This document shows, piece by piece, positions 12,201 to 57,894 of a DNA stretch of 64,000 nt; positions within the stretch are counted from its first letter, which is position 1, and each line of letters begins with the position of its first letter. Origin of the DNA: Heterodontus francisci (lineage: Eukaryota). The translations under genes were made by a program, and so were the position numbers. The notes under the pieces were generated by a model, which saw only the letters and a list, made by a program, of their open reading frames with translations, was not told the DNA's origin and made no database searches. Where the stretch lies: NCBI RefSeq assembly GCF_036365525.1, contig NC_090371.1:113784388-113848387 (forward strand). The letters are read 5' to 3'.

Positions 12201-13341
12201 CAGCGGTTCAAGGCGGCGGCTCATCATCACGTTCTCAAGGGCAATTAGGGATGGGCAATAAATTCTGGCCTAACCAGCAATGCCCATACCCCATGAATGA
12301 ATAAAAAAGCATAACTTCCCTGCTTTGGTACTCAATGCCTCTATTTATGAAGCCCAAGGTCCCATATGCTTTACTAACCACACACTCAATATGTCCTGCC
12401 ACCTTCAAAGACTTATGTACATGCACTCCCAGGTCCCTCGGTTCCTAAATTTGCCATTTACTATTTTGAAACCATGTCACCTTTCCTACTCTCAATTTAT
12501 TTTTAAATCAGTTTTTTTGTGTACCTGCACTTTTTTGAACGGTGCTATTAAGTATATATTGCCTCTCCCGACTCCTTCTGCCAACATGCATCAACTCACA
12601 CTTGTCTGCATTAAATTCCATCTTCCACCTCTCTACCCATTATGCTAGCCAGGTGTTTCATATCATCCACATTGTTTGCCACACCTACAAGTTTGGTGTC
12701 ATCAGCAAATTTTCAGGTTCTACTCTGTATTCCAAGATCCAAGTCATTTATATATAGCACAAAAAGTGGCCCTTGGGGAACACCACTGTCTACCATCCTC
12801 CAGTCTAAAAAGCTTTTTTTTTCTTTACTATGACTCACTGTTTTCCGTCCTTAAGCTGATTTTTTAAAATCCAATTAAAATTGGAGACTGATCCTCCTAT
12901 TCGAGGAGCCTCAATGTTGTTAACCAACCTGTTATATGGCACCTTATCAAACACTTTCTTAAAATCCATACAAACAACATCCACCGCATTCTCTTCATCA
13001 ACCTTCTCTGTTACTTCATCAAAAAATTCAATTAGATTAGTCAAGCATGATCTGTCATTTACAAATCCATGCTGGCTATCCTCAACTCAAACCTGTCTGA
13101 ATGTCCGTTGATATTTTCCCTGATTATTGTTTCTAAAACTTTACCTACCACTGATGTTAAACTAACTGACCTGTAGTTGCTGGACTGTCCTATTTGCCAC
13201 TCTCCAATCCTCTGGCACTCCCCCATATCCAGGTAAGATTGGAATATTATGGCAAATCCTTACGCTATTTCTGCCCCCACTTCCTTTAGCAACCTGGGAT
13301 GCAAACCATCGGGACCAGATGACTTATGTACCCTAAACATA
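9266..13341 (-). mobile_element. CR1 LINE (subfamily shared with 54358-56676), split by a nested LINE at 9820-12308
   Basis: The halves rejoin as ...CTTTATAAAGGTT|AGCATAACTTCC..., which is contiguous in the sister copy at ~54875-54900. RT motifs LTNLIEFF and MDFKKVFDKVP. Confidence 0.9.
9820..12308 (+). mobile_element. 5'-truncated non-LTR retrotransposon 'family B' (APE endonuclease and RT, CR1/L2-group), decayed
   Basis: APE motifs [14 protein letters not shown] and SDH. RT motifs QFGFRQGHS, LDIKAAFD, GVPQDSVL and FADC. Tail ATGAATGAATAAAAAA. Several frameshifts. Confidence 0.9.
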
Positions 13342-13394
13342 GGGTACCTCCTCCCTCAATCTTTTAGCACCTAATTACATTCTTTGACCAAAAT

Positions 13395-14187
13395 AACCCC
13401 CAAAACTCTCCTGCCCATATCCTAACTCACAAGAAGTCCTATTCGCCGATCACCTCCATGCTTGCTGACCTTCATTGGCTCCCGGTTAAGAAATGCCTCT
13501 TTTAAAATTCTCCTCCGTTTCCAAATCCCTCCATGATGCTGCTCCTCCTGATCGCTGTAACCTCCTCCAATCCTACAACCCTGAGATACCTGCACTCCTC
13601 CAATTCTGGCATCTTGTGCATCCCCAATTTTAATTGCTCTAAATTGGTGACAATGCCTTCAGCTGCCCAGGACCTAAACTCGAATTCACTTCCTAAATTG
13701 GGGTGGCACAGTGGTTAGCACTGCAGCCTCACAGCTCCAGAGACCCAGGTTCAGTTCTGGGTACTGCCTGTGTGGAGTTTGCAAGTTCTCCCTATGACTG
13801 CGTGTGTTTCCGGCAGGTGCTCCGGTTTCCTCCCACAGCCAAAGACTTGCAGGTTGATAGGTAAATTGGCCATTGTAAATTGCCCCTAGTGTCGGTAGGT
13901 GGTAGGAGAATTGACGGAAGGTGGGGATGTGGTAGGGAATATGGGATTAATGTAGGATTAGTATAAATGGGTGGCTGATGGTCGGTACAGACTCGGTGGG
14001 CCGAAGGTACCTGTTTCAGTGTGTATCTCTCTATGACTCTAAATCCCTCTCCCTTTCTTTCCTCCTTTCACACACTGCTTAAAACTTGCCTCTCATCTGC
14101 CCCATCAAATTTTTTTGATAACGCTCCTGTAGACCTTGGGATGTTTTACTATGTAAAAGGCACTATATAAATGCAAGTTGTCGTTGC
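13395..14187 (+). mobile_element. L2 LINE 3' fragment, interrupted by a SINE
   Basis: Translates to ITSMLADLHWLPVK..FKIL, an L2-type RT C-terminal motif. Tail GGCACTATATAAATGCAAGTTGTCGTTG. Confidence 0.75.
13700..14040 (+). mobile_element. tRNA-derived SINE with CR1-like tail (HE1/V-SINE-like)
   Basis: tRNA-like head with degenerate A/B boxes, core GGAGTTTGCAAGTTCTCCC, tail TCGGTGGGCCGAAGG. Homologous to three other copies in the window. Confidence 0.9.
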
Positions 14188-14439
14188 TAAATATGTGTAT
14201 TTGGTACCTTATCTGTAGGATTATTTGAACTGGTAATAGCTTAATTAATTGGTTATATAAATGGTGTGATCCGCTGTTCTCTGACTAATATTACCCGTGA
14301 GAATTGGATTATTATGTTAATTAAAATAGTGCAAAATTGAGGTTATTGGTGAGAGATTAGTCTACAACTGCAAAACATCAGTGCAAAAGATGTCATGGTA
14401 TTTATGGATAAGGAATGCTATTTGTCCTATTTTAGTTCT

Positions 14440-14670
14440 TCTATCTAAAAAAGCTCTAAAGATTCCCCAAGAAAGCATTCAATTGTCCCCACAATCATTC
14501 CATGTCCATTACATGTATTGATTACTATTTGTGTGAAGAACTTCCTAATATCGGTCCTAAATTTTCCATTTACTATTTTGAACCCATGTCCCCTTTCCTA
14601 CTCTCAATTTACTTTAAATCAATTTGCATGGTGCATTACCTTTTCCATACTATTATCTGTCTTGTAAACC
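14440..14670 (-). mobile_element. Old CR1-like 3' fragment; candidate donor of the ~70 bp insert at 12441-12510
   Basis: TGTGTGAAGAACTTCCT and GAACCCATGTCCCCT resemble the reverse complement of CR1 'RGH.FK...KFFTQ'. Boundaries approximate. Confidence 0.5.
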
Positions 14671-15725
14671 TCTGGTTACTGATCCAGCCATCAGCAGAAA
14701 CAGATTCTGCTTATTTGTTCTGATAAAACCCCTCGTTTTTTTCCTTACTTGGCAGCCCACAGAAGAAATAAAGGCTGGCAATTGGCCACCGGTGTCTTCT
14801 GAAATTCCTCATTTGGAAGCCCAGCTTCAGTTTTGTGGAGAAATTAGTCTGAGATGCTATCTACAGCGCTAGCCATGGTGCATTACCTTATTTATTATGA
14901 TAAGTACAGAATTACAGTTGTGAATTTATTGAAAAATTACCATGTCTGTTCTGAAGCCTAATGTGGGCAAAAGCAAAAGGATAAAGTTAAAAGAAAATGC
15001 TAAATCTAACAGAAAAATGTTGCTAAACTGGCTAATGTCATGACAACTGTGCCCTCACTGAAACTAGCTCCCTGATCTTTAGTAAATAATGCAGATTCAT
15101 AACTGTCGATGTTCTAGAGAACTGACCACTTGACTCTGAAAAAAAAAAGAGCTCCAGAAAAAAAAAAATCAAACTGTGAAAAGCATGAGAGAAATCAGGC
15201 AAATCAAGTTGATTTTAGTTGAAGATGCATATTAAGCACATCAAATAATTACCTGGTTATTTTTCAAGTCTGCACCCACAAGAAAACTGCCTTAAATGCA
15301 TATTAAGTATGACTGTTAAAAGCACTTTGTACAGCTCACAAATTAAAAAAAAAATTGCACCTGAATAAAATAGGACACATATTATGGTAACTACACCATG
15401 ATTGACAGTTTATTTTAAAATTTTGATGAATGATATTTAAGATAACCATGAATAAATCCTTCAATAGAAGCATTTTGGTGACCTCTTTTACCCTAATGGG
15501 TTTTCTTTTAAATCATGAGTCAGGAGAACTGAAATGTTTACTAAATTACTTTTAGTTGAAGTGATTAAGCAATATGGGCATATCACTTACGCTTTCTGCA
15601 TGTAGACCAATTTGTCATATCAGTGTCACATTTAAACCTGCTGCTCTTTAATTTTCTTAAAGCTATTAAGGGTGAAATTCCTCTTTGCACATGGAATATC
15701 GATTCAAGCTGGGGTATTTTACTTG

Positions 15726-16499
15726 TGTCAGACAAACCCCTACCTGCTAAGACTTCGCCACATGAATAAAAACTTTAAATTACAAGCCCTGACTGGAAGG
15801 ACATTTGCATGGTACCAGACAATGTTGAAACACTGGGGACCCAGTAGTTGCTTCCCCAATACACAGAAGTGGTCAAACCAGTTTTAGTCACATGACTAGC
15901 TGGCTGGAGTTTTTGAATTTGAACTTCCAACAAAGGATTTGAACTCAGAATGCCGTGTGCTCATGGACTGAGAACATCTCCTCTCTGTTTGCTTGCCTCC
16001 ATCTCTTTCCCACGGAACTGAGTCTTGTGAAGACACGTAAACTCAGAGAACAGTCTCCTATGTGAACAGGGTTGAAGACGAATACTGGGCCCCAACGAAA
16101 CGCAAGGCCATATCTTCAATCAAGGACTACAGCGAGTTGAAGAAACAGTACCAAGATATTACCTATTGCCTCAAACTGTTCTGCTTATCTTTTTTTCTGC
16201 TCTTTCCTATCCCTATTTGCATGTGTATTGCATGTCATGCTAGTGTAGGCGCGCGTATATCCATAGGCGTTAAGCACATCAGAGTTTAAGTTTAAGGTTT
16301 AATAAATTTCATCTTTCTTCTTTAAACCAAAGAAAGCCCGTTTGTGCTCATTTCTTTGCCTTATAATTGGAAAGTTTTGAACAAGGATTCACAAAAAGGT
16401 TGCTCAAAACACAGTGTGTTTAAAATAAAACTCTGTTACAATAAGACCAGGTAAAGACAGCAAAAGACCCTTTGATACATTTCTCACCTGGTCGTAACA
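15726..16499 (+). mobile_element. Solo LTR (family A)
   Basis: TGTCAGAC...GGTCGTAACA with a perfect 4-bp TSD CTTG (15722-15725 / 16500-16503). Homologous to 722-1581. Confidence 0.9.
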
Positions 16500-16736
16500 C
16501 TTGACATTTTAACTCAGAGAAATTAGCTATTTTAAACAGCACATAAATTTCATGCTGTCAGTTAATTTAAATGATAGCAACTTGCAGCCCAGTGCTAAAT
16601 GAGTATGCCTCAGTAGGGGGATGGGTTTGTGCCACTTAAAGCCAGTCTGTTCCTTTTAAAAGGGAGGTGCATTCCAGCTCCATCAGATGCTGGAAGTTGT
16701 TTGGGGAAGACTGTCTGACTGTCAAGACGATTGAAT

Positions 16737-19762: not shown

Positions 19763-21501
19763 GCCTAAAGAACAAAGAACAGTATAGCACAGGAACAGGC
19801 CATTCGGCCCTCCAAACCTGTGCCGATCTTGATGCTTGCCTAAACTAAAATCTTCCGCACTTCCGGGGACCATATCCCTCTATTCCCATCCTATTCATGT
19901 ATTTGTCAAGATGCCTCTTAAACGGCGCTATCACACCAGCTTCCACCACCTCCCCCGGCAGCAAGTTCCAGGCACTCACCACCCTCTGTGTAAAGAACTT
20001 GCCTCGCACATCCCCTCTAAACTTTGCCCCTCTCACCTTAAACCTATGTCCCCTAGTAACTGACTCTTCCACCCTGGGAAAAAGCTTCTGACTATCCACT
20101 CTGTCCATGCCACTCATAACTTTGTAAACCTCTATCATGTTGCCCCTCCACCTCCGTCGTTCCATGAAAACAATCCGAGTTTTTCCAACCTCTCCTCATA
20201 GCTAATGCCCTCCAGACCAGGCAACATCCTGGTAAACCACTTCTCTACCCTCTCCAAAGCCTCCACATCCTTCTGGTAGTGTGGCGACCAGAATTGCATG
20301 CAATATTCTAAGTGTGGCCTAACTAAAGTTCTGAACAGCTGCAGCATGACTTGCCAATTTTTATACTCTATGCCCCGACCGATGAAGGCAAGCATGCCAT
20401 ATGCCTTCTTGACTACCTTATCCACCTGCGTTGACACTTTGTGACCTGTGGACCTGTACGCCCAGATCTCTCTGCCTGTCAATACTCCTAAGGGTTCTGC
20501 CATTTACTGAATACTTCCCACCTGCATTAGATCTTCCAAAATGCATTACCTCACATTTGTCTGGATTAATCTCCATCTGCCATTTCTCCGCCCAAGTCTC
20601 CAACCGATCTATATCCTGCTGTATCCTCTGACAATCCTCATCACTGTCCGCAACTCCACCAACCTTTGTGTCATCCGCAAACTTACTGATCAGACCAGCT
20701 ACATTTTCCTCCAAATCATTTATATATGCTACAAAGAGCAAAGGTCCCAGCACAGATCCCTGCGGAACACCACTAGTCGCATCCCTCCATTCAGAAAAGC
20801 ACCCTTCCACTGCTACCCTCTGTCTTCTATGACCGAGCCAGTTCTCTATCCATCTTGCCAGCTCACCTCTGATCCCGTGTGACTTCACCCCTTGTACCAG
20901 TCTGCCATGAGGGACCTTGTCAAAGGCTTTACTGAAGTCCATATAGATAACATCCACTGCCCTTCCTTCATCAATCATCTTTGTCACTTCCTCAAAAAAC
21001 TCAATCAAATTAGTGAGACACGACCTCCCCTTCACAAAATCCTGTCCCGAAGAATCCTCTCTAATAATTTCCCCACCACTGACGCAAGGCTCACCGGCCT
21101 GTAATTTCCTGGATTATCCTTGCTACCCTTCTTAAACAAAAGAACAACATTGGCTATTCTCCAGTCCTCTGGGACCTCACCTGTAGCCAATGAGGATGCA
21201 AAGATTTCTGTCAAGGCCCCAGCAATTTCTTCCCTTGCCTCCCTCAGTATTCTGGGGTAGATCCCATCAGGCCCTGGGGACTTATCTACCTTAATGCTTT
21301 GCAAGACACCCAACACCTCCTCCTTTTTGATAGTGAGATGACTGAGACTATCTACACTCTCTTCCCTAGGCTCATCATCCACCAAGTCCTTCTCTTTGGT
21401 GAATACTGATACAAAGTACTCATTTAGTACCTCGCCCATTTCCTCTGGCTCCACACATAGATTCCCTTCTCTGTCCTTGAGTGGGTCAACCCTTTCCCTA
21501 G

Positions 21502-24180
21502 AGGAAAGAGGATATCACAGCTGTGCTGAAGGAGGGCACTATGGAGGACTCGAGCAGTGAGGCAATATGGACAGAACTCAGAAATAGGAAGGGTGCGGTA
21601 ACAATGTTGGGGCTGTACTACAGGCCTCCCAACAGCAAGCGTGAGATAGAGGTACAAATATGTAAACAGATTATGGAAAGATGTAGGAGCAACAGGGTGG
21701 TGGTGATAGGAGATTTTAATTTTCCCAACATTGACTGGGATTCGCTTAGTGTTAGAGGTCCAGATGGAGCAGAATTTGTAAGGAGCATCCAGGAGGGTTT
21801 TCCAGAGCAGTATGTAAGTAGTCCAACTCGGGAAGGGGCCATACTGGACCTGGTGTTGGGGAATGAGCCCGGCCAGGTTGTTGAAGTTTCAGTAGGGGAC
21901 TACTTTGGGAATAGTGATCACAATTCCGTAAGCTTTAAAATACTCATGGACAAAGACGAGAGTGGTCCTAAAGGAAGAGTGCTAAATTGGGGGAAGGCCA
22001 ACTATACCAAAATTCGGCAGGAGCTGGGAAATGTAGATTGGGAGCAGCTGTTTGAAGGTAAATCCACATGTGATATGTGGGAGGCTTTTAAAGAGAGGTT
22101 GATAAGCATGCAGGAGAGACATGTTCCTGTGAAAATGAGGGATAGAAATGGCAAGATTAGGGAACCATGGATGACAGGTGAAATTGTGAGACCAGCTAAG
22201 AGGAAAAAGGAAGCATACATAAGGTCTAGGCGGCTGATGAAAGACGAAGCTTTGAAAGAATATCGGGAATGTAGGACCAATCTGAAATGAGGAATTAAGA
22301 GGGCTAAAAGGGGTCATGAAATATCTTTAGCAAACAGGGTTAAGGAAAATCCCAAAGCCTTTTATTCATATATAAGGAGAAAGAGGGTAACTAGAGAAAG
22401 GATTGGCCCACTAAAGGACAAAGGAGGAATGTTATGCTTGGACTCAGAGAAAATGGGTGAGATTCTAAACGAGTACTTTGCATCGGTATTCACCGAGGAG
22501 AGGGACATGACGGATGTTGAGGTTAGGAACAGATGTTTGATTACTCTCGGTCAAGTCGGCATCAGGAGGGAGGAAGTGTTGGGTATTCTAAAGGGCATTA
22601 AGGTGGACAAGTCCCCAGGTCCGGATGGGATCTATCCCAGGTTACTGAGGGAAGCGAGAGAGGAAATAGCTGGGGCCTTAACAGATATCTTTGCAGCATC
22701 CTTAAACACGGGTGAGGTCCCGGAGGACTGGAGAATTGCTAATGTTGTCCCCTTGTTTAAGAAGGGTAGCAGGGATAATCCAGGTAATTATAGACCGGTG
22801 AGCCTGACGTCAGTGGTAGGGAAGCTGCTGGAGAAGATACTGAGGGATAGGATCTATTCCCATTTGGAAGAAAATGGGCTCATCAGTGATAGGCAACATG
22901 GTTTTGTGCAGGGAAGGTCATGTCTTACCAACTTAATAGAATTCTTTGAGGAAGTGACAAAGTTGATTGATGAGGGAAGGGCTGTCGATGTCATATACAT
23001 GGACTTCAGTAAGGCGTTTGATAAGGTTCCCCATGGCAGGCTGATGGAGAAAGTGAAGGCGCTTGGGGTCCAAGGTGTCCTAGCTAGATGGATAAAGAAC
23101 TGGCTGGGCAACAGGAGACAGAGAGTAGCAGTAGAAGGGAGTTTCTCAAAATGGAGACGTGTGACCAATGGTGTTCCACAGGGATCCGTGCTGGGACCAC
23201 TGTTGTTTGTGATATACATTAATGATTTGGAGGAAAGTATAGGTGGTCTGATTAGCAAGTTTGCAGACGACACTAAGATTGGTGGAGTAGCAGATAGTGA
23301 AGGGGACTGTCAGAGAATACAGCAGAATATAGATAGATTGGAGAGTTGGGCAGAGAAATGGCAGATGGAGTTCAATCAGGGCAAATGCGAGGTGATGCAT
23401 TTTGGAAGATCCAATTCAAGAGTGAACTATACAGTAAATGGAAAAGTCCTGGGGAAAATTGATGTCCAGAGAGATTTGGGTGTTCAGGTCCACTGTTCCC
23501 TGAAGGTGGCAACGCAGGTAAATAGAGTGGTCAAGAAGGCATACGGCATGCTTTCCTTCATCGGACGGGGCATTGAGTACAAGAGTTGGCAGGTCATGTT
23601 ACAGTTGTATAGGACTTTGGATCGGCCACATTTGGAATACTGCGTACAGTTCTGGTCGCCACATTATCAAAAGGATGTGGATGCTTTGGAGAGGGTGCAG
23701 AGGAGGTTCACCAGGATGTTGCCTGGTATGGAGGGCGCTAGCTATGAAGAGAGGTTGAGTAGATTAGGATTATTTTCATTAGAAAGACGGAGGTTGAGGG
23801 GGGACCTGATTGAGGTGTACAAAATCATGAGAGGTATAGACAGGGTGGATAGCAAGAGGCTTTTTCCCCAGAGTGGGGGTTTCAATTACTAGAGGACACG
23901 AGTTCAAAGTGAAAGGGGAAAAGTTTAGGGGGGATATGCGTGGAAAGTTCATTACGCAGAGGGTGGTGGGCACCTGGAACGCATTGCCAGCGGAGGTGGT
24001 AGATGCGGGCACGATGGAGTCTTTTAAGATGTATCTAGACAGATACATGAATGGGCAGGAAGAAAAGAGATACAGAACCTTAGAAAATAGGCGACATGTT
24101 TAGAGAGAGGATCTGGATCGGCGCAGGCTTGGAGGGCCGAAGGGCCTGTTCCTGTGCTGTAATTATCTTTGTTCTTTGTT
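21502..24180 (+). mobile_element. Young 5'-truncated CR1 nested antisense in the full-length CR1
   Basis: TSD CTAG (21498-21501 / 24181-24184). ORFs 21523-22290 and 22429-23892 are in one frame, separated by a single TGA. One late frameshift near 23865. Confidence 0.95.
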
Positions 24181-25399
24181 CTAGTTACCCTCTTGCTCTT
24201 TATATACGTATAAAAAGCCTTGGGATTTTCCTTAATTCTGTTTGCCAATGACTTTTCATGACCCCTTTTAGCCTTCCTGACTCCTTCCTACTGTCTTTAT
24301 ATTTCTCAAGGAATTTGTCCGTTCCGAGCCTTCCAGCCCTTACGAATGCTTCCTTTTTCTTTTTGACTAGGCTCACAATATCCCACATTATCCAAGGTTC
24401 CCGAAACTTGCCAAACTTATCCTTCTTCCTCACAGGAACATGCTGGTCCTGGATTCTAATCAACTAACGTTTGAAAGACTTCCACATGTCAGATGTTGAT
24501 TTACCCTCAAACAGCCGCCCCCAATCTAAATTCTTCAGTTCCTGCCTAATATTGTTATAATTAGCCTTTCCCCAATTTAGCACCTTCACCCGAGGACTAC
24601 TCTTATCCTTATCCACAAGTACCTTAAAGCTTATGGAATTATGGTCACTGTTCCCGAAATGCTCCCCTACTGAAACTTCGACCACCTGGCTGGGGTCATT
24701 CCCCAATACCAGGTCCAGTACGGCCCCATCCCTAGTTGGAATATCTCCATATTGTTTCAAGAAGCCCTCCTGGAAGCTCCTTACAAATTCTGCCCCATCC
24801 AAGCCCCTAGCACTAAGTGAGTCCCAGTCAATATAGGGGAGGTTAAAATCACCCACCACTACAACCCTGTTACCTTTACATCTTTCCAAAATCTGTCCAC
24901 ATATCTGCTCCTCTACCTCCCGCTGGCTGTTGGGAGGCCTGTAGAAAACCCCCAACATCGTGACTGCACCCTTCCTATTCCTGAGCTCCATCCATATTGC
25001 CTCGCTGCACGACCCCTCCGAGGTGTCCTCCCGCAGTACAGCTGTGATATTTTCCTTAACAAGTAATGCAACTCCCCCACCCCTTTTACATCCCCCTCTA
25101 TCCCACCTGAAGCTTCTAAATCCTGGAACATTTAGCTGCCAATCCTGTCCTTCCCTCAACCAAGTCTATGTAATAGCAACAACATCATAGTTCCAAGTAC
25201 TCCAAGCTCTAAGTTCATCTGCCTTATCTGTTATACTTCTTGCATTGAAACAAATGCACTTCAGACCACCAGTCCCGCTGTGCTCAGCAACATCGCCCTG
25301 CCTGCTCTTCCTCTTAGTCTTACTGGCCTTATTTACTAGTTCCCTCTTATTTATTTCACTTGCTGTCCTACTGCTCTGGTTCCCACCCCACCTGCCACA

Positions 25400-26240
25400 C
25401 TAGGTTAAACCCTCCCGAGTGACACTAGCAAACCTCGCAGCCAGGATATTTGTGCCTCTCCAGTTTAGATGCAACCCGTCCTTCTTGTACAGGTCCCATC
25501 TGTCCCTGAAGAGATCCCAATGGTCCAGATATCTGAAACCCTCCCTTCTACACCAGCTGCTCAGCCACGTGTTTAGCTGCACTATCTTCCTATTTCTGAC
25601 CTCACTGGCACGTGGCACAGGGAGTAATCCCAAGATTACAACCCTAGAGGTCCTGTCTTTTAACTTTCTACCTAACTCCCTAAACTCCCCCTGCAGGACC
25701 TCGTCACTCTTCCTGCCTATGTCGTTGGTACCGATGTGTACCACAACCTCTGGCTGTTCACCCTCCCCCTTCAGAATGCCCTCTGTCCGTTCAGAGACAT
25801 CCTTGACCCTGGCACCAGGGAGGCAACATACCATCCTGGAGTCTCTTTCACATCCACAGAAGCGCCTATCTGTGCCCCTATAACTATTGCTGTTCTGCGC
25901 TTTGTCCCTCCCTGCTGAACAACAGTGCCAGCCGTGGTGCCACTGCTCTGGCTGCTGCTGTTTTCCCCTGATAGGCCATCCCACCCAACAGTATTCAAAA
26001 CGGTATACTTGTTAGAGAGGGGGATAGCCACAGGGGCTTCCTGCACTGACTGCCTGCCCCTTCTAGCGGTCACCCATCTATCTGCCTGCACCTTGGGTGG
26101 AACCACTTCTCTAAAACTCCTGTCTATGACGCTTTCTGCCACCTGCATGCTCCTAAGTGCATCCAGTTGCTGCTCCAACCGATCCATGCGGTCTGTGAGG
26201 AGCTGCAACTGGGTACACTTCCTGCAGATGTAGTCGTCCG
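25400..26240 (-). pseudogene. CR1 ORF1 (coiled coil and SGNH/GDSL esterase), frameshifted
   Basis: CCLPGARV, HIGTNDIG and DGLHLN motifs. Confidence 0.9.
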
Positions 26241-26555: not shown

Positions 26556-27761
26556 CTTACTAAATTGTTATAATTAACTATATGGTCCCTAGTGCTAGAT
26601 TCCTACTATAAATATTAAATGCTAACTAAATACAGTAATCTCCTCCCTCTAGTTTAGTGACTACTTGTTAATTAGGTTTTTAATCAATTTTTATCAATGT
26701 TTTATTTTCAAATTCAGTAAAAAAATTCCCTACCAGCCAATCAGGTCACAGCTTTCCTGTGACGTCACTTTCAGTTTTTTTTACCAGCGGTAAGTTTTTT
26801 ATACTTACCGGTCTGGAACTCCGCCCTCCGAGTCTTCTCCCAGTCAGCTGTGCTCTTTGGAAGCTCTCAGCTCCCCTCACTCTGAGGACAGGTAGGAAAT
26901 GAAAGGAGCTCCTCACTCCCTCCTTACCGAACTTCCTCACTTACCAAACTTCCACTGTAGCACTCTAATACAACCCAAGTCAGCACTCCAATGCAAACAA
27001 AGTCAGCACTGTAAGATGGCTCACTTTTATACTGACTGACTCTAGCCCCCTGAAAACTGGTTTAAGCCAATTTTCTAATTAACACGGTGCAGCTGCAAGC
27101 AGAGCCTGAGTGAACCCTGTTTAAAGCTGGTCTAAAACTCACCTTCCCCAACCCAAACAGCAACTGTTAAGTTACTCTGCTAAATAAAAGACAGATTAGA
27201 TTTAAGATAAAATTAACCCTTAATTATCCTCAGTTACCAAACTTCCACTGTCGCACTCTAATGCAACCCAAGTCAGCACTCCAGTGCAAAAAGGTGAAGA
27301 TTGGAAACTATTTTTTTTCCAGATGGAAGGTTGCAATCTGAATTACTTTTGAGAAGAATGGCTGAAACCAACTGCGAAATGTCAGGGTATGATTTCCCAC
27401 CAATGTTCTCTGAATCTGAATCTTATGACCAATGGAAAAAAGAAAACCAGGTATGGCCTTGGCACTGTCCCTTCCTAAAAAAAAGCAAGATCAGGTGCAA
27501 AGTGTTTTGTGAGGCTCGTCAGTTGGACACTGAGGAAGGTTTGGAGCTTCTATTCAGCTTTATGGATAAAATTTATAAGAAAAATGATTTTATTAAATGC
27601 ATACCAGGCATGATCAGAATTTGCTAAATTTAGAAAGACAGATGATCATTCCATAAAGGGAAAAATTATGGAATTTTACACACTATATAACAGACTGCAG
27701 AAATTCTACTTTGAAATTCCTTGTTCAGTGCATGCTTTCAAATTGTTGGATTGTGCTAAAG

Positions 27762-29668: not shown

Positions 29669-31856
29669 TTCTCCAACATCTTCCCTTGATATTCAATGGC
29701 ATTACGATTGCTGAAGCCCTCACTATCAACATCCTGGGGGTTACCATTGACTAGAAGCTGAACTGGAGTAGCCATATAAATACCTTGGCTACAAGAGCAG
29801 GTCAGAGGCTAGGAATCCTGTGGCGATTAACTCACCTCCTGACTCCCCAAAGCTTGTCCACCATCTACAGGGCACAAGTCAGGAGTGTAATGGAATACTC
29901 TCCACTTGCCTGGATGGGTGCAGCTCCAACAACACTCAAGAGCCTCGACACCAACCAGGACAAAGCAGCACGCTTGATTGGCACCCCATCCATAAACATT
30001 CACTCCCTCCACCACCAATGCAAGATTTTTAAAAATTCATTCATGGGATGTGGGCGTCGCTGGCCAGGCCAGCATTTATTACCCATCCCTAATTGCCCTT
30101 GAGAAGGTGGTGGTGAGCTGCCTTCTAGAACCACTGCAGTGCATGTGGGGTAGATACACCCACAGTGCTGTTAGGAAGGGAGTTCCAGGATTTTGACCCA
30201 GCGACAGTGAAGGAACAGCAATATAGTTCCAAGTCAGGATGGTGTGTGACTTGGAGGGGAACTTGCAGGTGGTGGTGTTCCCATGCATTTGCTGCCCTTG
30301 TCCTTTTAGTTGGTAGAGGTCGCGGGTTTGGAAGGTGCTGTCTAAGGAGCCTTGGTGCATTGCTGCAGTGCATCTTGTAGATGGTACACACTGCTGCCAC
30401 TGTGCGTCGGTGGTGGAGGGAGTGAATGTTTGTAGATGGGGTGCCAATCAAGCGGGCTGCTTTGTCCTGGATGGTGTCGAGCTTCTTGAGTGTTGTTGGA
30501 GCTGCACCCATCCAGGCAAGTGAAGAGTATTCCATCACACTCCTGACTTGTGCCTTGTAGATGGTGGACAGGCTTTGGGGAGTCAGGAGGTGAGTTACCC
30601 GCCGCAGGATTCCTAGCCTCTGACCTGCTCTTGTAGCCACGGTATTTATATGGCTACTCCAGTTCAGTTTCTGGTCAATGGTAGCCCCTCGGAGGTTGAT
30701 AGTGGGGGATTCAATGATGATAATGCCATTGAATGTCAAGGGGAGATGGTTAGATTCTCTCTTGGTGGAGATGGTCATTGCCTGGCACTTGTGTGGCACG
30801 AATGTTACTTGCCACTTATCAGCCCAAGCCTGGATATTGTCCAAGTCTTGCTGCATTTCTACACAGACTGCTTCAGTATCTGAGGAGTCACAAATGGTGC
30901 TGAACATTGTGCAATCATCAGCGAACATCCCCACTTCTGACCTTATGATTGAAGGAAGGTCATTGATGAAGCAGCTGAAGATGGTTGGGCCTAGGACACT
31001 ACCCTGAGGAACTCCTGCAGTGATTTCCTGGAGCTCAGATGATTGACCTCCAACAACCATAACCATCTTCCTTTGCGCTAGGTATGACTCCAACCAGCGG
31101 AGGGTTTTCCCCCGATTCCCACTGACCTCAGTTTTGCTCGGGCTCCTTGATGCCATACTCGGTCAAATGCTGCCTTGATGTCAAGGGCAGTCACTCTCAC
31201 CTCACCGCTTGAGTTCAGCTCTTTTGTCCATGTTTGAACCAAGGCTGTAACGAGGTCAGGAGCTGAGTGGCCCTGGCGGAACCCAAACTGAGCGTCACTG
31301 AGCAGGTTATTGCTAAGCAAGTGCCGCTTGATGGCACTGTCTACAACACCTTCAATCACTGTACTGATGATTGAGAGTAGGCTGATAGGGCTGTAAGTGG
31401 CCGGGTTGGACTTGGCTACTTTTTGTGTACAGGACGTACCTGGGCAATTTTCCACATTGCAGGGTAGTTGCCAGTGTTGTGGCTGTACTTGAACAGCTTG
31501 ACTAGGGGCACGGCAAATTGTGCAGCAACGCACCAAGGCTCCTTAGACAGCACCTTCCAAACCCGCCACCTCTCCCACCTAGAAGGACAAGGGCAGCAAA
31601 TGCATGGGAACACGACCACCTGCAAGTTTCCTTCCAAGCCACACACCATCCTGACATGGAACTTTATTGCCACTCCTTCACTGTCGCTGGGTCAAAATCC
31701 TGGAACTCCCTTCCTAACAGTACTGTGGGTGTACCTACCCCACATGGACTGCAGCGGTTCAAGAAGGCAGCTCACCACCACCTTCTCAAGGGGAATTAGG
31801 GATGGGCAATAAATGCTGGCCTGCAATGCCCACATCCCCATGAATGAATTAAAAAA
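29669..31856 (+). mobile_element. Family-B LINE 3' fragment (29669-30022 + 31518-31856), split by an antisense copy of the same family
   Basis: Both halves are colinear with 11585-12308. Tail ATGAATGAATTAAAAAA. Confidence 0.9.
30030..31517 (-). mobile_element. Family-B LINE, 5'-truncated, young
   Basis: ORFs 30125-31156 and 31078-31536 have [16 protein letters not shown] and LDIKAAFDRVWH. Confidence 0.93.
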
Positions 31857-48610: not shown

Positions 48611-49856
48611 TTTTTTTTATTCTTTCACAGGGTGAGGGCATTACTGGCTAGGCCAGCATTTATTGCCCATCCCTAATTACCCTTGAGAAGGTGATGGTGA
48701 GCCTCCTTCTTGAACCGCTGCAGTCCATGTGGTGTAGGTATACCCATAGTGCTGTTAGGAAGGGAATTCCAGGATTTTGACCCAGCGACAGTGAAGGAAC
48801 GGCGATATCGTTCCAAGTCAGGATGGTGTGTGGCTTGAAGGGGAACTTGCAGGTAGTGGTGTTACATGCAGCTGCTGCCCTTGTCCTTCTATGCGGTAAA
48901 GGTCACGGGTTTGGAAGGTGCTGTCTAAGCAGCCTTGCTGAGTTGCTGCATTGCATATTGTACAAGTGTGAACGTTGAAGGTGGTGGATGGATGCCAATC
49001 AAGCGGGCTGCTTTGTCTTGGATGGTGTCAAGCTTCCTGAGTGTTGTTGGAGCTGCACTAATCCAGGCAAGTGGAGAGTATTCCATCACACTCCTGACCT
49101 GTGCCTTGTAGATGGTGGACGGGATTTGGGAAGTCAGGAGGTGAGTAACTCGCCGCAGGATTCCTAGCCTCTGAATTGCTCTTGCAGCCACAGTATTTAA
49201 ATGCCTTCTCTAGTTAAGATTCTTATCAATGGTAACCCCCCAGGATGTGGACAGTGGGAGATTCAGCAATCATAATGCTGTTGAATATCAGGGGGAGATG
49301 GCCAGATTCTCTCTTGTTGGAGATGGTCATTGCCTGGCACTTGTGTGGCATGAATGTTACTTGCCACTTATCAGTCCAAGCCTGGATACTGTCCAGCTCT
49401 TGATGCATTTCTACACAGACTGCTTCAGTATCTGAGGAGTCGCGGATGGTACTGGACATTGTGCAATCATCAGCGAACATCCCCACTCAGACGTCATGAA
49501 GGTCATTAATGAAGCAGCTGAAGATAGTTGGGCCTAGGACACTACCCTGAGGAATGCCTGAATGATCCCCTGGAGCTGAGATGATTGACCTCCAACAACC
49601 ACAACCATCTTTCTTTGTGCTAGGTATGACTTCAACCAGCGGAGAGTTTTCCCCAATTCCCATTGAATCCAGTTTTGCTGGGACTCCTTGATTCCACACT
49701 CGGTCAAATGCTGCCTTGATGTCAAAGGCAGTCACTCTCACACCTCTTGAGTTCAGCTCTTTTGTCCATGTTTGAACCAAGGCTGTAATGAGGTCAGGAG
49801 CTGAGTGGCCCTGGCAGAACCCAAACTGAGCGTCACTGAGCACGTTTATTGCTAAG
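48611..49856 (-). mobile_element. Family-B LINE, 5'-truncated, with 3' tail
   Basis: Tail TTTTTTTTATTC on the + strand. FADDCT and PQGSVLGP motifs. Confidence 0.9.
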
Positions 49857-51641
49857 TCAGGATGGTGTGTGACTTGGTGGGGAACTTGCAGGTGGTGGTG
49901 TTCCCATGCATTTGCTGCCCTTGTCCTTCTAGTTGGTAGAGGGCGCGGGTTTGGAAGGTGCTGTCTAAGGAGCCTTGGTGCGTTGCTGCAGTGCATCTTG
50001 TAGATGGTACACACTGTTGCCACTGTGCGTCAGTGGTGGAGGAAGTGAATATTTGTAGATGGGGTGCCAATCAAGCGGGCTGCTTTGTCCTGGATGGTGT
50101 CGAGCTTCTTGAGTGTTGTTGGAGCTGCACCCATCCAGGCAAGTGGAGTGTATTCCATCACACTCCTGACTTGTGCCTTGAAGATGGTGGACAGGCTTTG
50201 GGGAGTCAGAAGGTGAGTTACTCGCCGCAGGATTCCTAGCCTCGGACCTGCTCGTAGCCACGGTATTTATATGGCTACTCCAGTTAAGTTTCTGGTCGAT
50301 GGTAGCCCTTAGGATGTTGATAGTGGGGGATTTAGCGATGGTAATGCCATTGAATGTCAAGGGAAGATGGTTAGATCCTCTCTTGGTGGAGATGGTCATT
50401 GCCTGGCACTTGTGTGGCACGAATGTTACTTGCCACTTATCAGCCCAAGCCTGGATATTGTCCAAGTCTTGCTGCATTTCTACACAGACTGCTCCAGTGT
50501 CTGAGGAGTCACAAATGGTGCTGAACATTGTGCAATCATCAGCGAACATTCCCACTTCTGACCTTATGATTGATGGAACGTCATTGATGAAGCAGCTGAA
50601 AATGGTTGGGTCCAGGACACTACCCTGAGGAACTCCTGCAGTGATGTCCTGGAGCTCAGATGATTGACCTCCAACAACCACAACCATCTTCCTTCGCGCT
50701 AGGTATGACTCCAACCAGCGGAGGGTTTCCCCCCGATTCCCACTGACCTCAGTTTTGCTCGGGCTCCTTGATGCCATACTCAGTCAAATGCTGCCTTGAT
50801 GTCAAGGGCAGTCACTCTCACCTCACCGCTTGAGTTCAGCTCTTTTGTCCATGTTTGAACCAAGGCTGTAATGAGGTCAGGAGCTGAGTGGCCCTGGCGG
50901 AACCCTAGCTGAGCGTCACTGAGCACGTTATTGCTAAGCAAGTCCCACTTGATAGCACTGTCTACGACACCTTCCATCACTTTACTGATGATCGAGAGTA
51001 GACTGATGGGGCGGTAATTGGTCTGGTTGGATTTGTCCCGCTTTTTCTGTTTAGGATATATCTGGGCAATCTTCCACACTGCAGGGTAGATGCCAGTGTT
51101 GACGCTGTACTGAAACAGCCTGGCTATGGGCGTGGCAAGTTCTGGAGCACAGGTCTTCAGTACTATTGCCGGAATGTTGTCAGGACCCATAGCCTTTGCA
51201 GTATCCAGTGCCTTCAGTTGTTTCTTGATATCACGCGGAGTGAATCAAATTGGCTGAAGACTTGCATCTGTGATGCTGGGGACTTCAGGAGGAGGCTGAG
51301 ATGGATCATCCACTTGACACGTCTGGCTGAAGATTGTTGCAATTGCTTCAGCCTTATCTTTTGCACTGATGTGCTGGGTTCCTGCATCATTAAGGATGGG
51401 GATATTTGTGGAGCGAGCTCCTCCAGTAAGTTGTTTAATTGTCCACCACCATTCAAGACTGGATGTGGCAGGACTGCAGAGCTTAGGTCTGAGTCGTTGG
51501 TTGTGGGATTGCTTATCTGTCTATTGCATGCTGCTTACATTGTTTGGCATGCAAGTAGTCCTGTGTTGTCGCCTCACCAGATTGACACCTCATTTTGAGG
51601 TATGCCTGGTGCTGGTCCTGGCATGCCCTCCTGCACTCTTC
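49854..51641 (-). mobile_element. Family-B LINE lacking its 3' tail, in tandem with the previous copy
   Basis: NYRPISLLS, LDIKAAFD and FADDCT. The junction shares AAG microhomology. Confidence 0.9.
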
Positions 51642-52519
51642 ACATGGTCTGAGCACAAACCTTGCAGTCAGAACTCAAGCTTTCACCACTTACCAGACCA
51701 CTCCCTGTTGAGTTCAGCAAATTTAACTCATAGTACAAACCACCAAACATATCTACAAACTCAGCAGCAGGCAGTGAATATCAGATCAGCAACTAACCTC
51801 AGATAGGTTGATGATCTCTTTAAATAGTGCTGGTGGCGGGCGGTGGGGCTGGCATGGTCCTTCCTGCTGCTGAACACACATTCAACTGGGTAAGGTTAAG
51901 AGAGGGCAATGGCTGGAGCACTGAGGTCAAAATGGCACAGCCAGAGGCAAATCAGTGTTATGTGCTGAATGGCGTCGCGATCTGCCTATTCTGCATATTT
52001 CCTAACGACTGCCCTTTCAACCTACCCAAATTGGTATACAGTGCAACCCGCATCAGAACTGTGACATGGAGACCATTTTGGACCTGAAACTACACCTGTA
52101 GTGTCAAAGATACAGGCACTTTGGTGCCAAACTTTGTGGCCTTAGGTTCCTGCAATATTGAAGGAGCTAGAATGCATGCATAATTAAACATCCAATCAAA
52201 TGTGGCTCAATTCACATTAATGGGAAGCTCTCCTAATTTTAATAAAATCTGAGGCCTTAATGAGCCATCCATTTAGAGCATATGCAGCATGCATTTTCAT
52301 GCATTGGGTGCTGATTATATTACAAGCTTCAGCATCGGATACTAAGTATGTAAGGAAACTGAAGTTAAGTATCAGAAAGGAAAAGAAACACAGGAATGCA
52401 AAAATAGAGGGCTACCCAGCAAAGCCAACTAATATGTAGATCAAATTGCAAATAAATAGAAGTACAAAAGAATCTAAAATAAAAACTGCTTTCAGTAACA
52501 ACCATCTTGGGGATCACTA

Positions 52520-53224: not shown

Positions 53225-54357
53225 ATCTTAGGATCGATCACCTTGAGCTGATCAGAACTGGTCCTAATATTCCCCCAAGCCCAGATTTAATGGACAGTAT
53301 TAGTGATATGCAGAATCTTTTCCACAGTTTGCTTGGAACCCTTTTCATACATGTTTTATATGTAAATGAGGTGGAGCATTCCACAAACATATATTTGTTG
53401 TCTTAAATGATCAAGCGGAAAATCAGGCATATCACATGTGGTCCCGTTCCTTCACCTCTCTGTCTGCACTACAGCTAGAACTTCCAAGCCTGATGCCAAC
53501 AGTTTGCCTGCCTACTTCCTCATATCATAGCCACACACTGCAACATACTGCTTCCTCCTCCAACCAACATCCTCTCCTCTCACCCCCAACTCCCAAGAAG
53601 AAATATATTTGGGATCCAGAAGTGCCTAGCTCAACACAGATAGCCTCTTCGACATAAAAATACAGTAAAACTAGGGAAATCTAGAGCTGCAGCCCATCTC
53701 TGGAAATGCTGAATCACAGGGCTGAATTTTATGGACTCCTAAGGACAGGAATAGAGGCAGGGGAACCCATAAAATTGTGTGGGAAGGCAAGGGGGTGGAG
53801 TGCCCGTCACCTTCCAATCTAGCCCGACTACGGCCTTCCTGCTTCAAGCCAATTGAGGTCCTTAAGTGGCCAATTAATGACCACTTAAGGGCCTCTTCCT
53901 GCCACCACCTCAATTTAATGGAAGACAGAGGTGCCCACCGTGGTGGGGAGATGCCGCCTGGTAAAACTTAGCAGCCTCCTAGCGAGGTCAGGGAGGGGTG
54001 GGGGGTGCCTCCTTTGGTGGCAATCCAGGGCCCCCAGTGGGGGCCTGCCCGGTGTCGATGGCTGCCCCAACCCAGGAACACACCCTGAACCTCACTGACA
54101 CCTTCCCCCACTGTGTCACCGGGCCTGCCTGAATGGTCCTGGCAACCCCCACCCCACTTACCTGTCCCCTCCTGGTGGCACTGCTAATACAGCAGAGCTG
54201 CCGGCCTTCTGACTGGCCAGCAGCTCTGGAGGCAGGAGCTCATCCCTTAAAGGAATGGCAGCCCGGACGGTGGGCTGTTAATTGACTGCCCGCCATTAAA
54301 TAGGACCAGGGGTCCGACCGAGGGCCAAGGCAGGGTCCCCGACACCTTAGAGGAAGC

Positions 54358-56676
54358 GAGTCATTTTCGGCACAGAAGGCCATTCAGCCCATCGAGTTCA
54401 AGCCGGCTCTTAAGAGCTATCCAGTCAGTCCCACTCCCCAGCTCGATCCCCCTAGCGGTGAAAGTTTATTTTCTTCAGGTGGTCATCCAATTTCCTTTTG
54501 AGTCACTGATTGCCTCCGCTTCCACCACCCTTGTGGTCAGCGAGTTCCAGGTCACTATCACCCACCATGTAAAAAAAAATTCTTCCTCACATTTCCCCTG
54601 CACTTCTTGCCCGAAACTTACATCTGTATCCACTAGTCCTTGTACCATTGTACCTGAGCATGTCATAATCTTGTCCACCTCTGTTAAATCTCCCCCCAAT
54701 CTCCTTTGTTCTAAGGAGAACAAACCCAGCTTTTCCAACCTAACCTTGTAACTAGAATCCTCCATCCCTGGAACCATTCTGGTAAATCTCCTCTACACCT
54801 TCTCAAGGACTCATCTTTCCTGAAGCGTGGTGACCAGAACTGGATGCAATACTCCAGTTGGGGCCAAACCAGAGCTTTATAAAGGTTCAGCATAACTTCC
54901 CTGTTGTTGTACTCAAGGCCTCTATTTATGAAGCCCAAGATCCCAGATGCTTTACTAACTACTCTCTCAATATGCCCTGCCATCTTCAAAGATGCATGCA
55001 CATACACCCCCAGGTCCCTCTGTTCCTGCATACTCTTTAGAACTGTGCCATTAAGTATATATTACCAACAGCTCTCAGGCATATCTAAAATATTAATGCA
55101 TCATCTCACACTTATCAGTATTAAGTGCAATCCGCTACGTGTCTGCCCATTCTGCCAGGCTATCCATGTCCTGTTGCAGGCGATTCATATCATCCTCACA
55201 ATTTGCCACACCTCCAAATTTGGTGTCATCAGCCAATTCTGAGATTCTACTCTGTAATCCAAAATCCAAGTCATTTATATATAGCAAAAAAAGCAATGAC
55301 CGTTGGGGAACACCACTGTTTACCATCCTCTAGTCTGAAAAGCAACCATTTACGACAGCTTGCTGTTTTCTGTCCTTAAGCTGATTTTTTAAAATCCAAT
55401 TGGACACTGATCCTCCTAATCCAGGAGCCTCAAGTTTCCTTAACCAGCGTTTTATGTGGTATCTTATCAAACACATTCTTAAAATCCATATATACATCAC
55501 ATTCCCTTCATCAACCTTCTCTATTACTTCATCAAAGAAATTCAATTTGATTAGTCAAGCATGATCTCCCTTTTACAAATCCATGCTGGCTCTCCTTAAT
55601 TAATCCAAATCTCTCCAAGTGTGTGTTGATATTTTCCCTGATTGTTTCTAAAACCTTACCCACCACTGATGTTAACTAACTGGTCTATAGTTGCTAGGAC
55701 TGTCCTTACACCCTTTCTTGATTAAGGATGTCACATTTGTCACTCTCCAATCCTCTGGCATCTCTCCCGTATCCAGGGAAGACTGGAAGATTATGGCAAA
55801 CCCTTCTGCTCTCTCCACCCTCACTTCCTTTAGCAACCAGGGATGTAAGCCATCTGGACCAGATGACATATCTACCCTAAGCATAGCCAGCCTTTTTAGT
55901 ACCATCCCCTCTAAAATTTTACCCTATACATTAAAGCCCTGCTACCTGACCCAAACCCAAAGGGACCCTACGACATGTGTCGGGTTCGGGTCGGGCCCAT
56001 CTTCCGGGTCCGGCTTTCGGGCTTGGGTCAGGTCGGGCCAGACACACACGGTAGGTGTTCTGCTGGTAAGTATTAAAAATAAAAAACTTAGCTGAGCTGG
56101 GAGTCCAGGACGAAACGAAGTCTGCGCAGTGAGCGAGTGGCGTCACTATGACGTCATCACGCATGCGCTGCAGTTTCGTGCAGCTTCCCTGTCGGAAGGT
56201 AAGTAAACGGATGTCGGGTCAGGGTAGAGTGGGGTCGGGCTTGGGCTTGGGGCGAAACTGGAGGGTCTCGTGTTGGGTCCACTGTGTATCGGTTGGGTTC
56301 GGGTCGGGTTCTTTTTCCTGTCCTGAGCAGGCCTTTACTATACATTGCATCTAATCTCTCTGCTTCTACCAATATTGTGTCAGATTCCAATTCCTGAAGG
56401 AGTACTTTGTATTAGTGTTCACTAAGTATATTAGCCTTGCCTCTAAGCACATATTATCCTCAATGTCTGTTACAGGTTCCTCTCCTCCTTTTACTACCTG
56501 CTTACTATTTACATGCCGGTAGAAGATCTCTGGGTTGCCTTTTATGTTGACTGCCATTCTATTCTCATGTTCTCTCTTTGCCAGTCTTCTTTTTCTCTTC
56601 ACCTCCTTTCCCAACTTTTTGTATATGGCCTGGTTCTCACTTGAAGAATTCACCTGACATGCATCATACACTCTCT
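54358..56676 (-). mobile_element. CR1 LINE fragment (sister of 9266-13341)
   Basis: NYRPVS, LADDTKFGG and QLEYCIQFWSP. 3' end colinear with 9266-9819. Confidence 0.9.
55932..56337. mobile_element. hAT MITE (406 bp)
   Basis: TIRs TAAAGCCCTGCT / AGCAGGCCTTTA (11/12). Perfect 8-bp TSD CTATACAT (55924-55931 / 56338-56345). Many subterminal TCGGG repeats. Confidence 0.93.
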
Positions 56677-57340
56677 TCCGGCCTGCTATCGCCAGAATAA
56701 AATCCAGCCCACAGTATCTAACTTGCTTAAAATAAAGTACATTATACTTGAACATTGTTTTCTTTCCTTTCATGCTCCTTGTAAAAAAACTCAATGGCTG
56801 ATGTTTTAGTCTATTCTACATCCAAGAATTTACATTTTATGATATTTAGTTACCCTCTTTAGTGTTCTTTAATTGCTTTAAATACAAATATCTATTTTTT
56901 CTATTATTCCTTAAAAAAATTGTAATTCCAATTTTAATGTTTTAAATACACGAACTTATTTTATAGGGTTTATTTTCTTTTACTGTTCAAAAATTAGACC
57001 TACTTTCATTCTCATTCTTCAGCTAATACAAGCATACTATAGGTATAATTTTTTTAAATTAAACTTCACACCTACCAACCAACATTTAATACTCTATTCC
57101 TATTAGTTCATTAAATATTTCAAGTTCAATTAATTTCTTTGCTCTATCTTTTTCCTCCAACCTCCAGTCAGCAGGTAACAAGAAATCTAGTGGTATCTGT
57201 AATATATTAAGATTTGTTCATAGTCCACAAGAGTCATACTTACTTCCTGTAATGCTTTTCCATTGTTGATAAAACTATCAATCCCCTCACCACCATGGAG
57301 TAGCACCATGTTACTATACAATTACTCGATCACCCATGAC

Positions 57341-57894
57341 ATTTCATGCAAGGGAGTAGAAATTCCTCGGGACCTGGTAAGAGCCAGGGGATGGACAGAG
57401 AGCGAGACCGAGAGCGAGACCGAGAGCAAGAGCAGACAGTCAGGAGGTAGGCAGGCAACAGCTCTCAGGCATATCTAAAATATTAATTTGTATGTATATA
57501 TTAAACACATTCACATAGAGACACTTAATATTTTTGTTTTTTTCTTCTGGCTTTATGGAGCAGATGGAAGCATGTTTCACGTATTATGATACAGAATTAA
57601 TATACTCTTGTTGAGTTGTTCTTTTGAATTAAAACTGATTTATCAATTTCAGAAAGCAAATCCTCAAACCAAAAATAAATTGGTTTCATATTACTGGCTT
57701 CAACTGTGTTCTACCGAGTAGGATAGTTTTTCATTATTCACTAATGAGTTATGAAAAGAAACTGTGATTCTGCAAGAATTTCATGCAAGGGAGTAGAAAT
57801 TCCTCGGGACCTGGTAAGAGCCAGGGGATGGACAGAGAGCGAGACCGAGAGCGAGACCGAGAGCAAGAGCAGACAGTCAGGAGGTAGGCAGGCA
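57341..57894 (+). repeat. Exact 117-bp direct repeat (57341-57457 = 57778-57894)
   Basis: Base-by-base identical by eye, offset 437 bp. Confidence 0.97.

What the first reader, a model, noticed from the sequence alone, without database searches (positions are those of the whole stretch)
12441..57487. Two sister CR1 copies each carry a local-copy insert at nearly the same position, matching DNA just beyond their own 5' end
Seen: CR1 copies 9266-13341 and 54358-56676 are the same subfamily, 43 kb apart. Each has a non-CR1 insert within ~40 bp of the same consensus position (around CAGGTCCCTCTGTTCCT...AGTATATATT). Each insert matches, in direct orientation, sequence ~2.1-2.4 kb to the right and outside the element (12441-12510 ~ 14554-14622; 55066-55097 = 57456-57487). 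Known: polymerase-theta end joining and microhomology template switching create such inserts. Inference: the positional coincidence could reflect a subfamily-specific fragile or pause site, or reverse-transcriptase excursions onto target DNA during integration. With n=2, chance is not excluded.
Basis: partly seen in the sequence, partly recalled or inferred. Interest (0 to 1): 0.7.

Follow-up and report, generated by a model that had tools for sequence, protein, structure and literature searches.

The report
Two unrelated repair scars in CR1s
Two dead copies of a jumping gene each hold a short piece copied from DNA about 2 kb away; these are real but likely ordinary scars of later DNA-break repair, and genome-wide counts show no excess of inserts at this spot in the element, so their near-matching position is likely chance.

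Summary
Copy 1 has an 80-bp insert 91% identical to DNA 2.1 kb away. Copy 2 has a 32-bp replacement identical to DNA 2.4 kb away. The two sit 33-60 bp apart on the element.

- Genome-wide, 25 of 2,555 scorable copies carry a 19-79-bp insert across this interval; 15 are C-run slippage. The other 10 (0.39%) match a control interval (4 of 1,092; 0.37%). Only copy 1 has a flank donor.
- At copy 2's site, 2 of 4,149 copies pass a replacement filter; only copy 2 has a local donor.
- In 138 unselected copies, inserts in this 100-bp bin number 6 against 6.4 expected. Locally copied inserts occur at other positions, with donors on both sides.
- Both inserts are closer to their donors than sister copies are to each other (about 16% apart), so they likely post-date integration.

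These fit repair-mediated duplications (Pace et al. 2009), which this scan has noted before in this and other genomes. One extra: donor 2 begins exactly where a perfect 117-bp local duplication ends, which suggests one compound repair event.

The parts
9266..13342 (-). CR1 copy 1, 5'-truncated (majority positions about 9-1591), interrupted by a nested LINE and by insert 1
   Evidence: RVT_1 in a sister copy; 9.6% from the majority sequence
9820..12306 (+). Nested 2.5-kb repeat of another LINE family inside copy 1; not part of the scar
   Evidence: 2,487-bp insert at position 581; 85-90% matches to 29677-31856 and 48612-51650
12447..12526 (+). Insert 1: 80 nt copied from donor 1, with CCT shared at both junctions (left junction 8 of 9 with TCGG-TCCT)
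14551..14641 (+). Donor 1: part of an old dispersed repeat that continues on both sides here, so this is the native site
   Evidence: 248 candidates, 40 scored, others 73-87%
54358..56677 (-). CR1 copy 2, 5'-truncated (majority positions about 1-1976)
   Evidence: 9.2% from the majority sequence
55064..55097 (+). Insert 2: replacement of about 26 element bases; 55066-55097 identical to donor 2; AAT shared at the right junction, 1 base at the left
57456..57487 (+). Donor 2: AT-rich DNA found otherwise only in insert 2
   Evidence: 31 of 31 candidates scored; very common words are skipped by that search
57341..57457 (+). Exact 117-bp direct copy of 57778-57894; its right end overlaps the left end of donor 2 by 2 bases
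57778..57894 (+). Partner of the 117-bp duplication; which arm is the original is not resolved

Best explanation
Each insert is a private copy of DNA 2.1-2.4 kb away, likely written by DNA-break repair after the CR1 copy had integrated, and the two inserts likely lie near each other on the element by chance. Inferred mechanism: a break falls inside the dead CR1; the left 3' end primes on a few matching bases in resected or unwound DNA about 2 kb to the right, copies 32-90 nt, is released, and re-anneals to the right end of the break through 3 matching bases (CCT in copy 1, AAT in copy 2). Copy 1 lost almost nothing; copy 2 lost about 26 bases. Shown: the copies, their junction matches, the native site of donor 1, the even spread of inserts along the element. 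Inferred: the break, the enzyme (SDSA-like synthesis or polymerase theta), the timing.
For: Genome-wide, the interval 687-784 has 25 distinct copies with a 19-79-bp net insert against 2,530 with normal spacing. 15 are C-run expansions (11 fetched, 4 judged from the 80 printed bases); 10 are other inserts. Control interval 1117-1214: 4 against 1,088; Fisher p = 1.0. Of the 25, only copy 1 has a flank donor within 5 kb. At copy 2's site, 2 of 4,149 copies pass the replacement filter and the second, L186, has no local donor. In 138 unselected copies, 131 inserts are evenly spread; bin 700-800 has 6 against 6.4 expected. Local donors occur elsewhere and on both sides: L073 (position 431, -1.3 kb), L159 (120, +0.67 kb), L236 (2302, -0.56 kb), L196 (434, inverted, -0.83 kb), L172 (722, inverted, own element, +0.47 kb). 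Age: copies differ by 13.5% or more (median about 17%); 0 of 32 differences has P = 0.004 at 16% and 0.017 at 12%; 5 of 72 has P = 0.019 and 0.12. Background: 8 private local duplicate pairs in 98 loci of 10 kb. Pace et al. 2009 (PMC2671141) describe this class inside transposon copies.
Against: Leaving out copy 1, 5 of the 9 non-slippage inserts in the interval lie at 722-736; for a window of 12 bases either side of copy 1's site this is p of about 0.05 by my arithmetic, so a weak local preference is not excluded. Counting slippage, the interval has more inserts than the control (25 vs 4; p = 0.066). Only one control has a denominator. The window holds 3 private local pairs against about 0.5 expected, although two were selected by the finding. 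The age test is weak for insert 1, and later gene conversion could also explain the identity of insert 2. The pattern counts see only copies with exact anchors, and the replacement filter passes about one replacement in five (0.75^6, my estimate). No empty allele or orthologue was seen.
Confidence: 0.87

Rival explanations
1. Insert 2 and the 117-bp duplication are one compound repair event: two breaks 2.4 kb apart; the end inside the CR1 briefly joined the free end at 57456, copied 32 nt and returned, and the second break was then patched from 57778. This refines the best explanation and does not oppose it.
For: Donor 2 starts within 2 bases of the right junction of the duplication; both copies are 100% identical to their partners, direct, and lie left of their partners. 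The junction shows a 7-of-8 match (ACAGCTCT / ACAGTTCT). A shared end point within 3 bases by chance is about 0.2% (my arithmetic: 4 junctions x 6 bases in 10 kb).
Against: Which arm of the 117-bp pair is the original is unresolved. The two bases left of insert 2 (AC) equal those left of the duplication, which would fit insert 2 being copied before the duplication. No pre-event allele was seen.
Confidence: 0.45
2. A weak sequence-dependent fragile or nick-prone spot at majority positions about 720-736 attracts inserts of all kinds, insert 1 among them.
For: 6 of 10 non-slippage inserts in the 97-bp interval fall at 722-736; the spot lies about 20 bases from a C-run that expands often (15 copies).
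Against: The whole-interval rate equals the control; the implied excess is about two-fold at most; the inserts are mixed (retroposon fragments, a tandem copy, an inverted self-copy); insert 2 lies outside the spot; no excess in 138 copies.
Confidence: 0.08
3. The CR1 reverse transcriptase jumped onto target DNA beyond the future 5' junction and back to the RNA during integration, at a pause site.
For: Both donors are on the 5' side in direct orientation, the geometry such a jump would give (inference). Extra bases at LINE 5' junctions often derive from flanking DNA (PMC4245944, passages).
Against: The inserts are 0.8 and 1.2 kb inside the 5' ends and the donors 1.2 and 0.78 kb outside them; each needs two jumps. 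No recurrence at either site among 2,555 and 4,149 copies. Insert 2 is identical to its donor while the copy has drifted 9%. Other donors lie on the 3' side or are inverted.
Confidence: 0.04
4. The matches are assembly artefacts or chance likeness to dispersed repeats.
For: Donor 1 belongs to an old repeat family; insert 2 is short and AT-rich.
Against: Insert 1 is 91% like the local donor, the best match among the 40 scored, and shares its private differences from family member L207. Insert 2 has no other match. Short-read unitigs carry insert 2's right junction.
Confidence: 0.01

Closest known systems
Repair-mediated duplications (RDs), Pace, Sen, Batzer and Feschotte 2009, PMC2671141 (read: parts 1-3 of 8 and found passages; supplements not opened)
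   Same: A transposon copy interrupted by non-consensus DNA copied from within 5 kb (824 of 1,136 human cases; 753 under 3 kb), with microhomology of 2-9 nt, deletion or filler, and no poly-A tail. Found in mammals, chicken and zebrafish.
   Different: Their screen needed 50 bp or more and a single-copy donor: insert 2 is 32 bp and donor 1 is part of an old repeat. The 26-nt deletion exceeds their 1-15 nt. The species they list include no cartilaginous fish. They confirmed empty sites by orthologues, which I could not.
Polymerase-theta templated insertions (TINS), Carvajal-Garcia et al. 2020, PMC7165422 (read: found passages only)
   Same: Direct-repeat inserts made by one broken end copying the other resected end; AT-rich; microhomology at junctions; deletion plus insertion.
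   Different: TINS are described as 3-30 bp, with first-round tracts rarely over 10 bp and distal templates in under 0.1% of repair. Here the tracts are 32 and about 80-90 nt from over 2 kb away.
5' extra nucleotides of LINE inserts (ZfL2-2), PMC4245944 (read: found passages only)
   Same: Flank-derived sequence associated with a LINE copy.
   Different: Those lie at the 5' junction and arise at integration; these lie 0.8-1.2 kb inside the element and look younger than it.

Membership tests
Repair-mediated duplication (Pace 2009) | Transposon copy interrupted by sequence not alignable to its consensus | tested here: met
Repair-mediated duplication (Pace 2009) | Donor within 5 kb and more than 50 bp away | tested here: met
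   2,112 and 2,390 bp
Repair-mediated duplication (Pace 2009) | Microhomology, deletion or filler at junctions; no poly-A/T retrocopy tail | tested here: met
   CCT at both ends of insert 1; AAT plus a 26-nt deletion for insert 2. The T7 run near the end of insert 1 aligns inside the donor tract.
Repair-mediated duplication (Pace 2009) | Screening cut-offs: at least 50 bp and a donor found at one other place only | tested here: inconclusive
   Insert 1 meets the length but its donor is in an old repeat family; insert 2 has a unique donor but is 32 bp. These are pipeline filters, not mechanism.
Repair-mediated duplication (Pace 2009) | Empty site in an orthologue or allele | tested here: inconclusive
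   X5 and X6 have next to no depth on the unique DNA; X1/X4 are one sample; no related genomes are held
Polymerase-theta TINS | Short tract (3-30 bp) templated close to the break | tested here: not met
   32 and about 80-90 nt from over 2 kb (PMC7165422 passages)
Polymerase-theta TINS | Dependence on POLQ | not testable with these tools
   fixed genomic scars
LINE 5' extra nucleotides / RT template jump | Located at the 5' junction | tested here: not met
   inserts at 721-783; 5' ends at 1591 and 1976
LINE 5' extra nucleotides / RT template jump | As old as the element copy | tested here: not met
   insert 2: 0 of 32 differences, P 0.004-0.017; insert 1 only suggestive, P 0.02-0.12
Position-specific hotspot in the subfamily | Excess of flank-templated inserts at 700-800 | tested here: not met
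CR1-type non-LTR retrotransposon (host element) | Reverse transcriptase ORF, 5' truncation, short tandem 3' tail | tested here: met
RVT_1 E 4e-21 in L014; 850-aa frame in the majority sequence; coverage falls toward the 5' end; tandem tail.

The most novel reading that the evidence does not exclude
This CR1 subfamily carries a short built-in fragile spot (majority positions about 720-736, beside an unstable C-run) that is broken or nicked about twice as often as the rest of the element in tens of thousands of dead copies, so the element's own sequence shapes where germline repair scars accumulate.
Probability: 0.08. Interest if true: 0.45.

Novelty: new member of a known kind. Interest (0 to 1): 0.12.

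Why it matters
A real hotspot for reverse-transcriptase excursions onto distant target DNA would have been a new step in LINE integration; the counts argue against it. What remains is two clean examples of repair-mediated duplication in a vertebrate lineage that Pace et al. did not list, a rough background of 8 private local pairs per 0.98 Mb, and a possible compound event linking two breaks 2.4 kb apart.

Tried and rejected
Control interval 1 gave 221 matches, most of the 100 listed being one multi-copy family with an inherited C-run; its anchors also catch other CR1 subfamilies. I ran no denominator and did not use it as a rate; 15 of its loci were read for donors only.

An early idea that the element has a fixed 5' end at 56677 was dropped when the majority sequence extended to 3.2 kb.

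A retrocopy origin for insert 1 was rejected: the T-run is on the wrong side for a poly-A tail and aligns within the donor.

The raw gapped alignments ran into junk beyond element ends, so only blocks of 40 or more bases at 70%, or 25 or more at 84%, were kept; one search also drops inserts with deletions over 60 bases.

Copy 1 was not checked in reads. The nested LINE in copy 1 was not typed by a family search.

Three literature searches were answered; none of the listed titles or abstract starts describes a positional hotspot in CR1. This is not an exhaustive search, and no supplements were opened.
Full report
1. Observation. The window lies on contig C1 of a 6.0-Gb genome; earlier scan notes call it a shark, which I did not test. 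Both matches are real: 12438-12514 with 14551-14625 (90.9%, 77 columns: 5 substitutions, 2 one-base gaps) and 55066-55097 with 57456-57487 (32/32), both direct. The hosts are minus-strand, 5'-truncated copies of one LINE family: a sister copy hits RVT_1, the majority sequence of 3.2 kb has an 850-aa frame, and coverage falls toward the 5' end. On that sequence, numbered from the 3' tail, insert 1 lies at about 721-724 and insert 2 replaces about 757-783. The copies are 15.7% apart, like any two members (medians 16.5% and 17.5%, minimum 13.5%, 94 comparisons each). The donors are 1.2 and 0.78 kb beyond the 5' ends.

2. Anatomy. Insert 1 (12447-12526) starts after CCT, shared with the donor (8 of 9 with the bases before it), and the donor alignment runs on to TACCT, so CCT is shared at the right junction too. 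Donor 1 is part of an old dispersed repeat that continues on both sides at 14.5 kb, and the insert shares the local donor's differences from family member L207; the transfer went from flank to element. Insert 2 replaces about 26 element bases and shares AAT at its right junction. Its donor has no other match among 31 of 31 candidates scored. Short-read unitigs of X1 and X4 (one sample, probably the assembly's) carry 55068-55189 and 57398-57779 at the depth of unique DNA, which speaks against an assembly artefact but is not independent support.

3. Hotspot test, genome-wide. A pattern with exact anchors around positions 687-784 found 2,530 copies with normal spacing and 26 rows, 25 distinct copies, with 19-79 extra bases, copy 1 among them. 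I fetched 20 of the other 24 with 5-kb flanks and judged 4 from the 80 printed bases. 15 are expansions of the C-run at about 700. The other 10 are three tandem copies, a SINE-like piece, a piece of another repeat, an AT-rich filler, one piece of CR1 sequence absent from its own locus, one mixed case, one inverted copy from the element itself (L172) and copy 1. Copy 1 is the only one with a flank donor. A control interval of the same length (1117-1214) has 4 inserts against 1,088 normal copies, none with a flank donor: 0.39% against 0.37%, Fisher p = 1.0; with slippage counted, p = 0.066. Because insert 2 adds only 7 bases, a separate pattern asked for replacement of 757-783: 2 of 4,149 copies pass, copy 2 and L186, and L186 has no donor in its 10 kb. 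That filter passes about one replacement in five (my estimate), so such replacements are of the order of 0.2%.

4. Hotspot test, unselected copies. 98 copies came from the 100 places listed for an anchor 130-160 bases from the site (left out: copy 2 itself and one place lying inside another fetched locus), and 40 from the 100 listed. All are on C1. In these 138 copies (219 kb aligned), 131 inserts are spread evenly; bin 700-800, covered by at least 116 copies, has 6 against 6.4 expected. Of 63 inserts up to 300 bp (the window copies included), those whose best match is local are copies 1 and 2, L073 (431), L159 (120), L236 (2302), the weaker L077 (59) and a tandem copy (L141); none but the two selected lies at 700-800. 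With L196 (434, inverted, 3' side) and L172, unselected non-tandem donors lie on the 3' side in 4 cases (one weak) and on the 5' side in 2.

5. Age. The copies are 9.6% and 9.2% from the majority sequence. An insert made at integration should now differ from its donor about as much as two copies differ. For insert 2, 0 of 32 has P = 0.004 at 16% and 0.017 at 12%; for insert 1, 5 of 72 has P = 0.019 and 0.12. Insert 2 is therefore likely much younger than its host; insert 1 probably is. Gene conversion is not excluded.

6. Chance. 8 private local duplicate pairs occur in 7 of 98 loci of 10 kb; the window has 3. By my arithmetic, not a tool result: about 2.5% of copies carry a local insert (3-4 of 138), two inserts fall within 60 bp on a shared 1.55 kb with probability about 0.08, and about 46,000 copies give some 17,000 pairs within 50 kb, so roughly one such coincidence is expected in this subfamily alone.

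7. Results against my reading. Without copy 1, 5 of 9 non-slippage inserts lie at 722-736, p about 0.05 for a window centred on copy 1's site; the implied excess is about two-fold, and the inserts are of mixed kinds. Only one control has a denominator. Exact anchors favour less diverged copies. No empty allele was seen.

8. Mechanism. Shown: private local copies with 1-3-base exact junction matches and a deletion in one. Inferred: a break in the dead element, priming of the left 3' end about 2 kb into the right-hand DNA, short synthesis, release and re-annealing. Direct orientation with the donor on the right is what one end copying the other resected end gives (PMC7165422, passages), so it does not point to the reverse transcriptase. 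Tract length and distance fit the SDSA-like model of Pace et al. better than typical polymerase-theta inserts; the enzyme cannot be told from sequence.

9. An extra feature. 57341-57457 is an exact copy of 57778-57894, and donor 2 starts within 2 bases of its right end. Both copies are perfect and direct. One compound event with two breaks is plausible (0.45), but the original arm is unknown.

10. Comparison and verdict. Pace et al. 2009 (PMC2671141; parts 1-3 of 8 and passages) found 824 such duplications within 5 kb inside human transposon copies and others in chicken and zebrafish. The two inserts meet the biological criteria; each misses one pipeline filter. LINE 5' extra nucleotides (PMC4245944, passages) lie at the junction and do not fit. 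Earlier notes of this scan reached similar readings on other DNA; I found the Pace paper through, and those notes are not counted as support. Verdict: new members of a known kind, positional coincidence likely chance, interest 0.12.

Noticed in passing
window 14627-14642 and 14874-14889: An exact 16-bp direct pair overlaps the end of donor 1. Insert 1 and family member L207 both lack 3 bases that the donor has there, so the donor may have been patched from 14874 after insert 1 was copied (one family member only).
   Followed up: partly
window about 56376-56398 (majority positions 1686-1709 of copy 2): About 23 bases of copy 2 read as an inverted copy of the adjacent element sequence: a second small repair or template-switch scar in the same copy.
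   Followed up: partly
window 55931-56337: About 410-bp insertion in copy 2 with terminal inverted repeats and a near-perfect 8-base flanking repeat; looks like a hAT-type MITE (family label recalled).
   Followed up: partly
majority position about 700 (window 12425-12430, 55006-55011) and about 445-454: Short C-runs expand into 19-54-base C-rich tracts in many independent copies: 15 of 25 inserts at the first site and several at the second.
   Followed up: partly
G000 contigs C21, C28, C84, C177, C286, C891 and others: One CR1 copy with a C-run expansion recurs in most of the 100 listed of 221 matches, mainly on small contigs: a large multi-copy unit or segmental family.
   Followed up: no
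window 26934-26997 and 27227-27290: Another short direct local duplication, 94% over 64 bases, 293 bp apart.
   Followed up: no
window 19767-26235, 29677-31856, 48612-51650: LINE copies with internal inversions or head-to-tail internal duplications.
   Followed up: no
L159, majority positions 120-164: A 178-bp replacement copied from 0.67 kb further into the same element, sharing its private deletion: a clear unselected example of the same process.
   Followed up: yes
L166, majority position 705: A 58-bp insert of CR1 sequence from positions 2090-2153, which this copy (ending at 1797) does not otherwise hold within 5 kb: capture from another copy or from CR1 cDNA.
   Followed up: no
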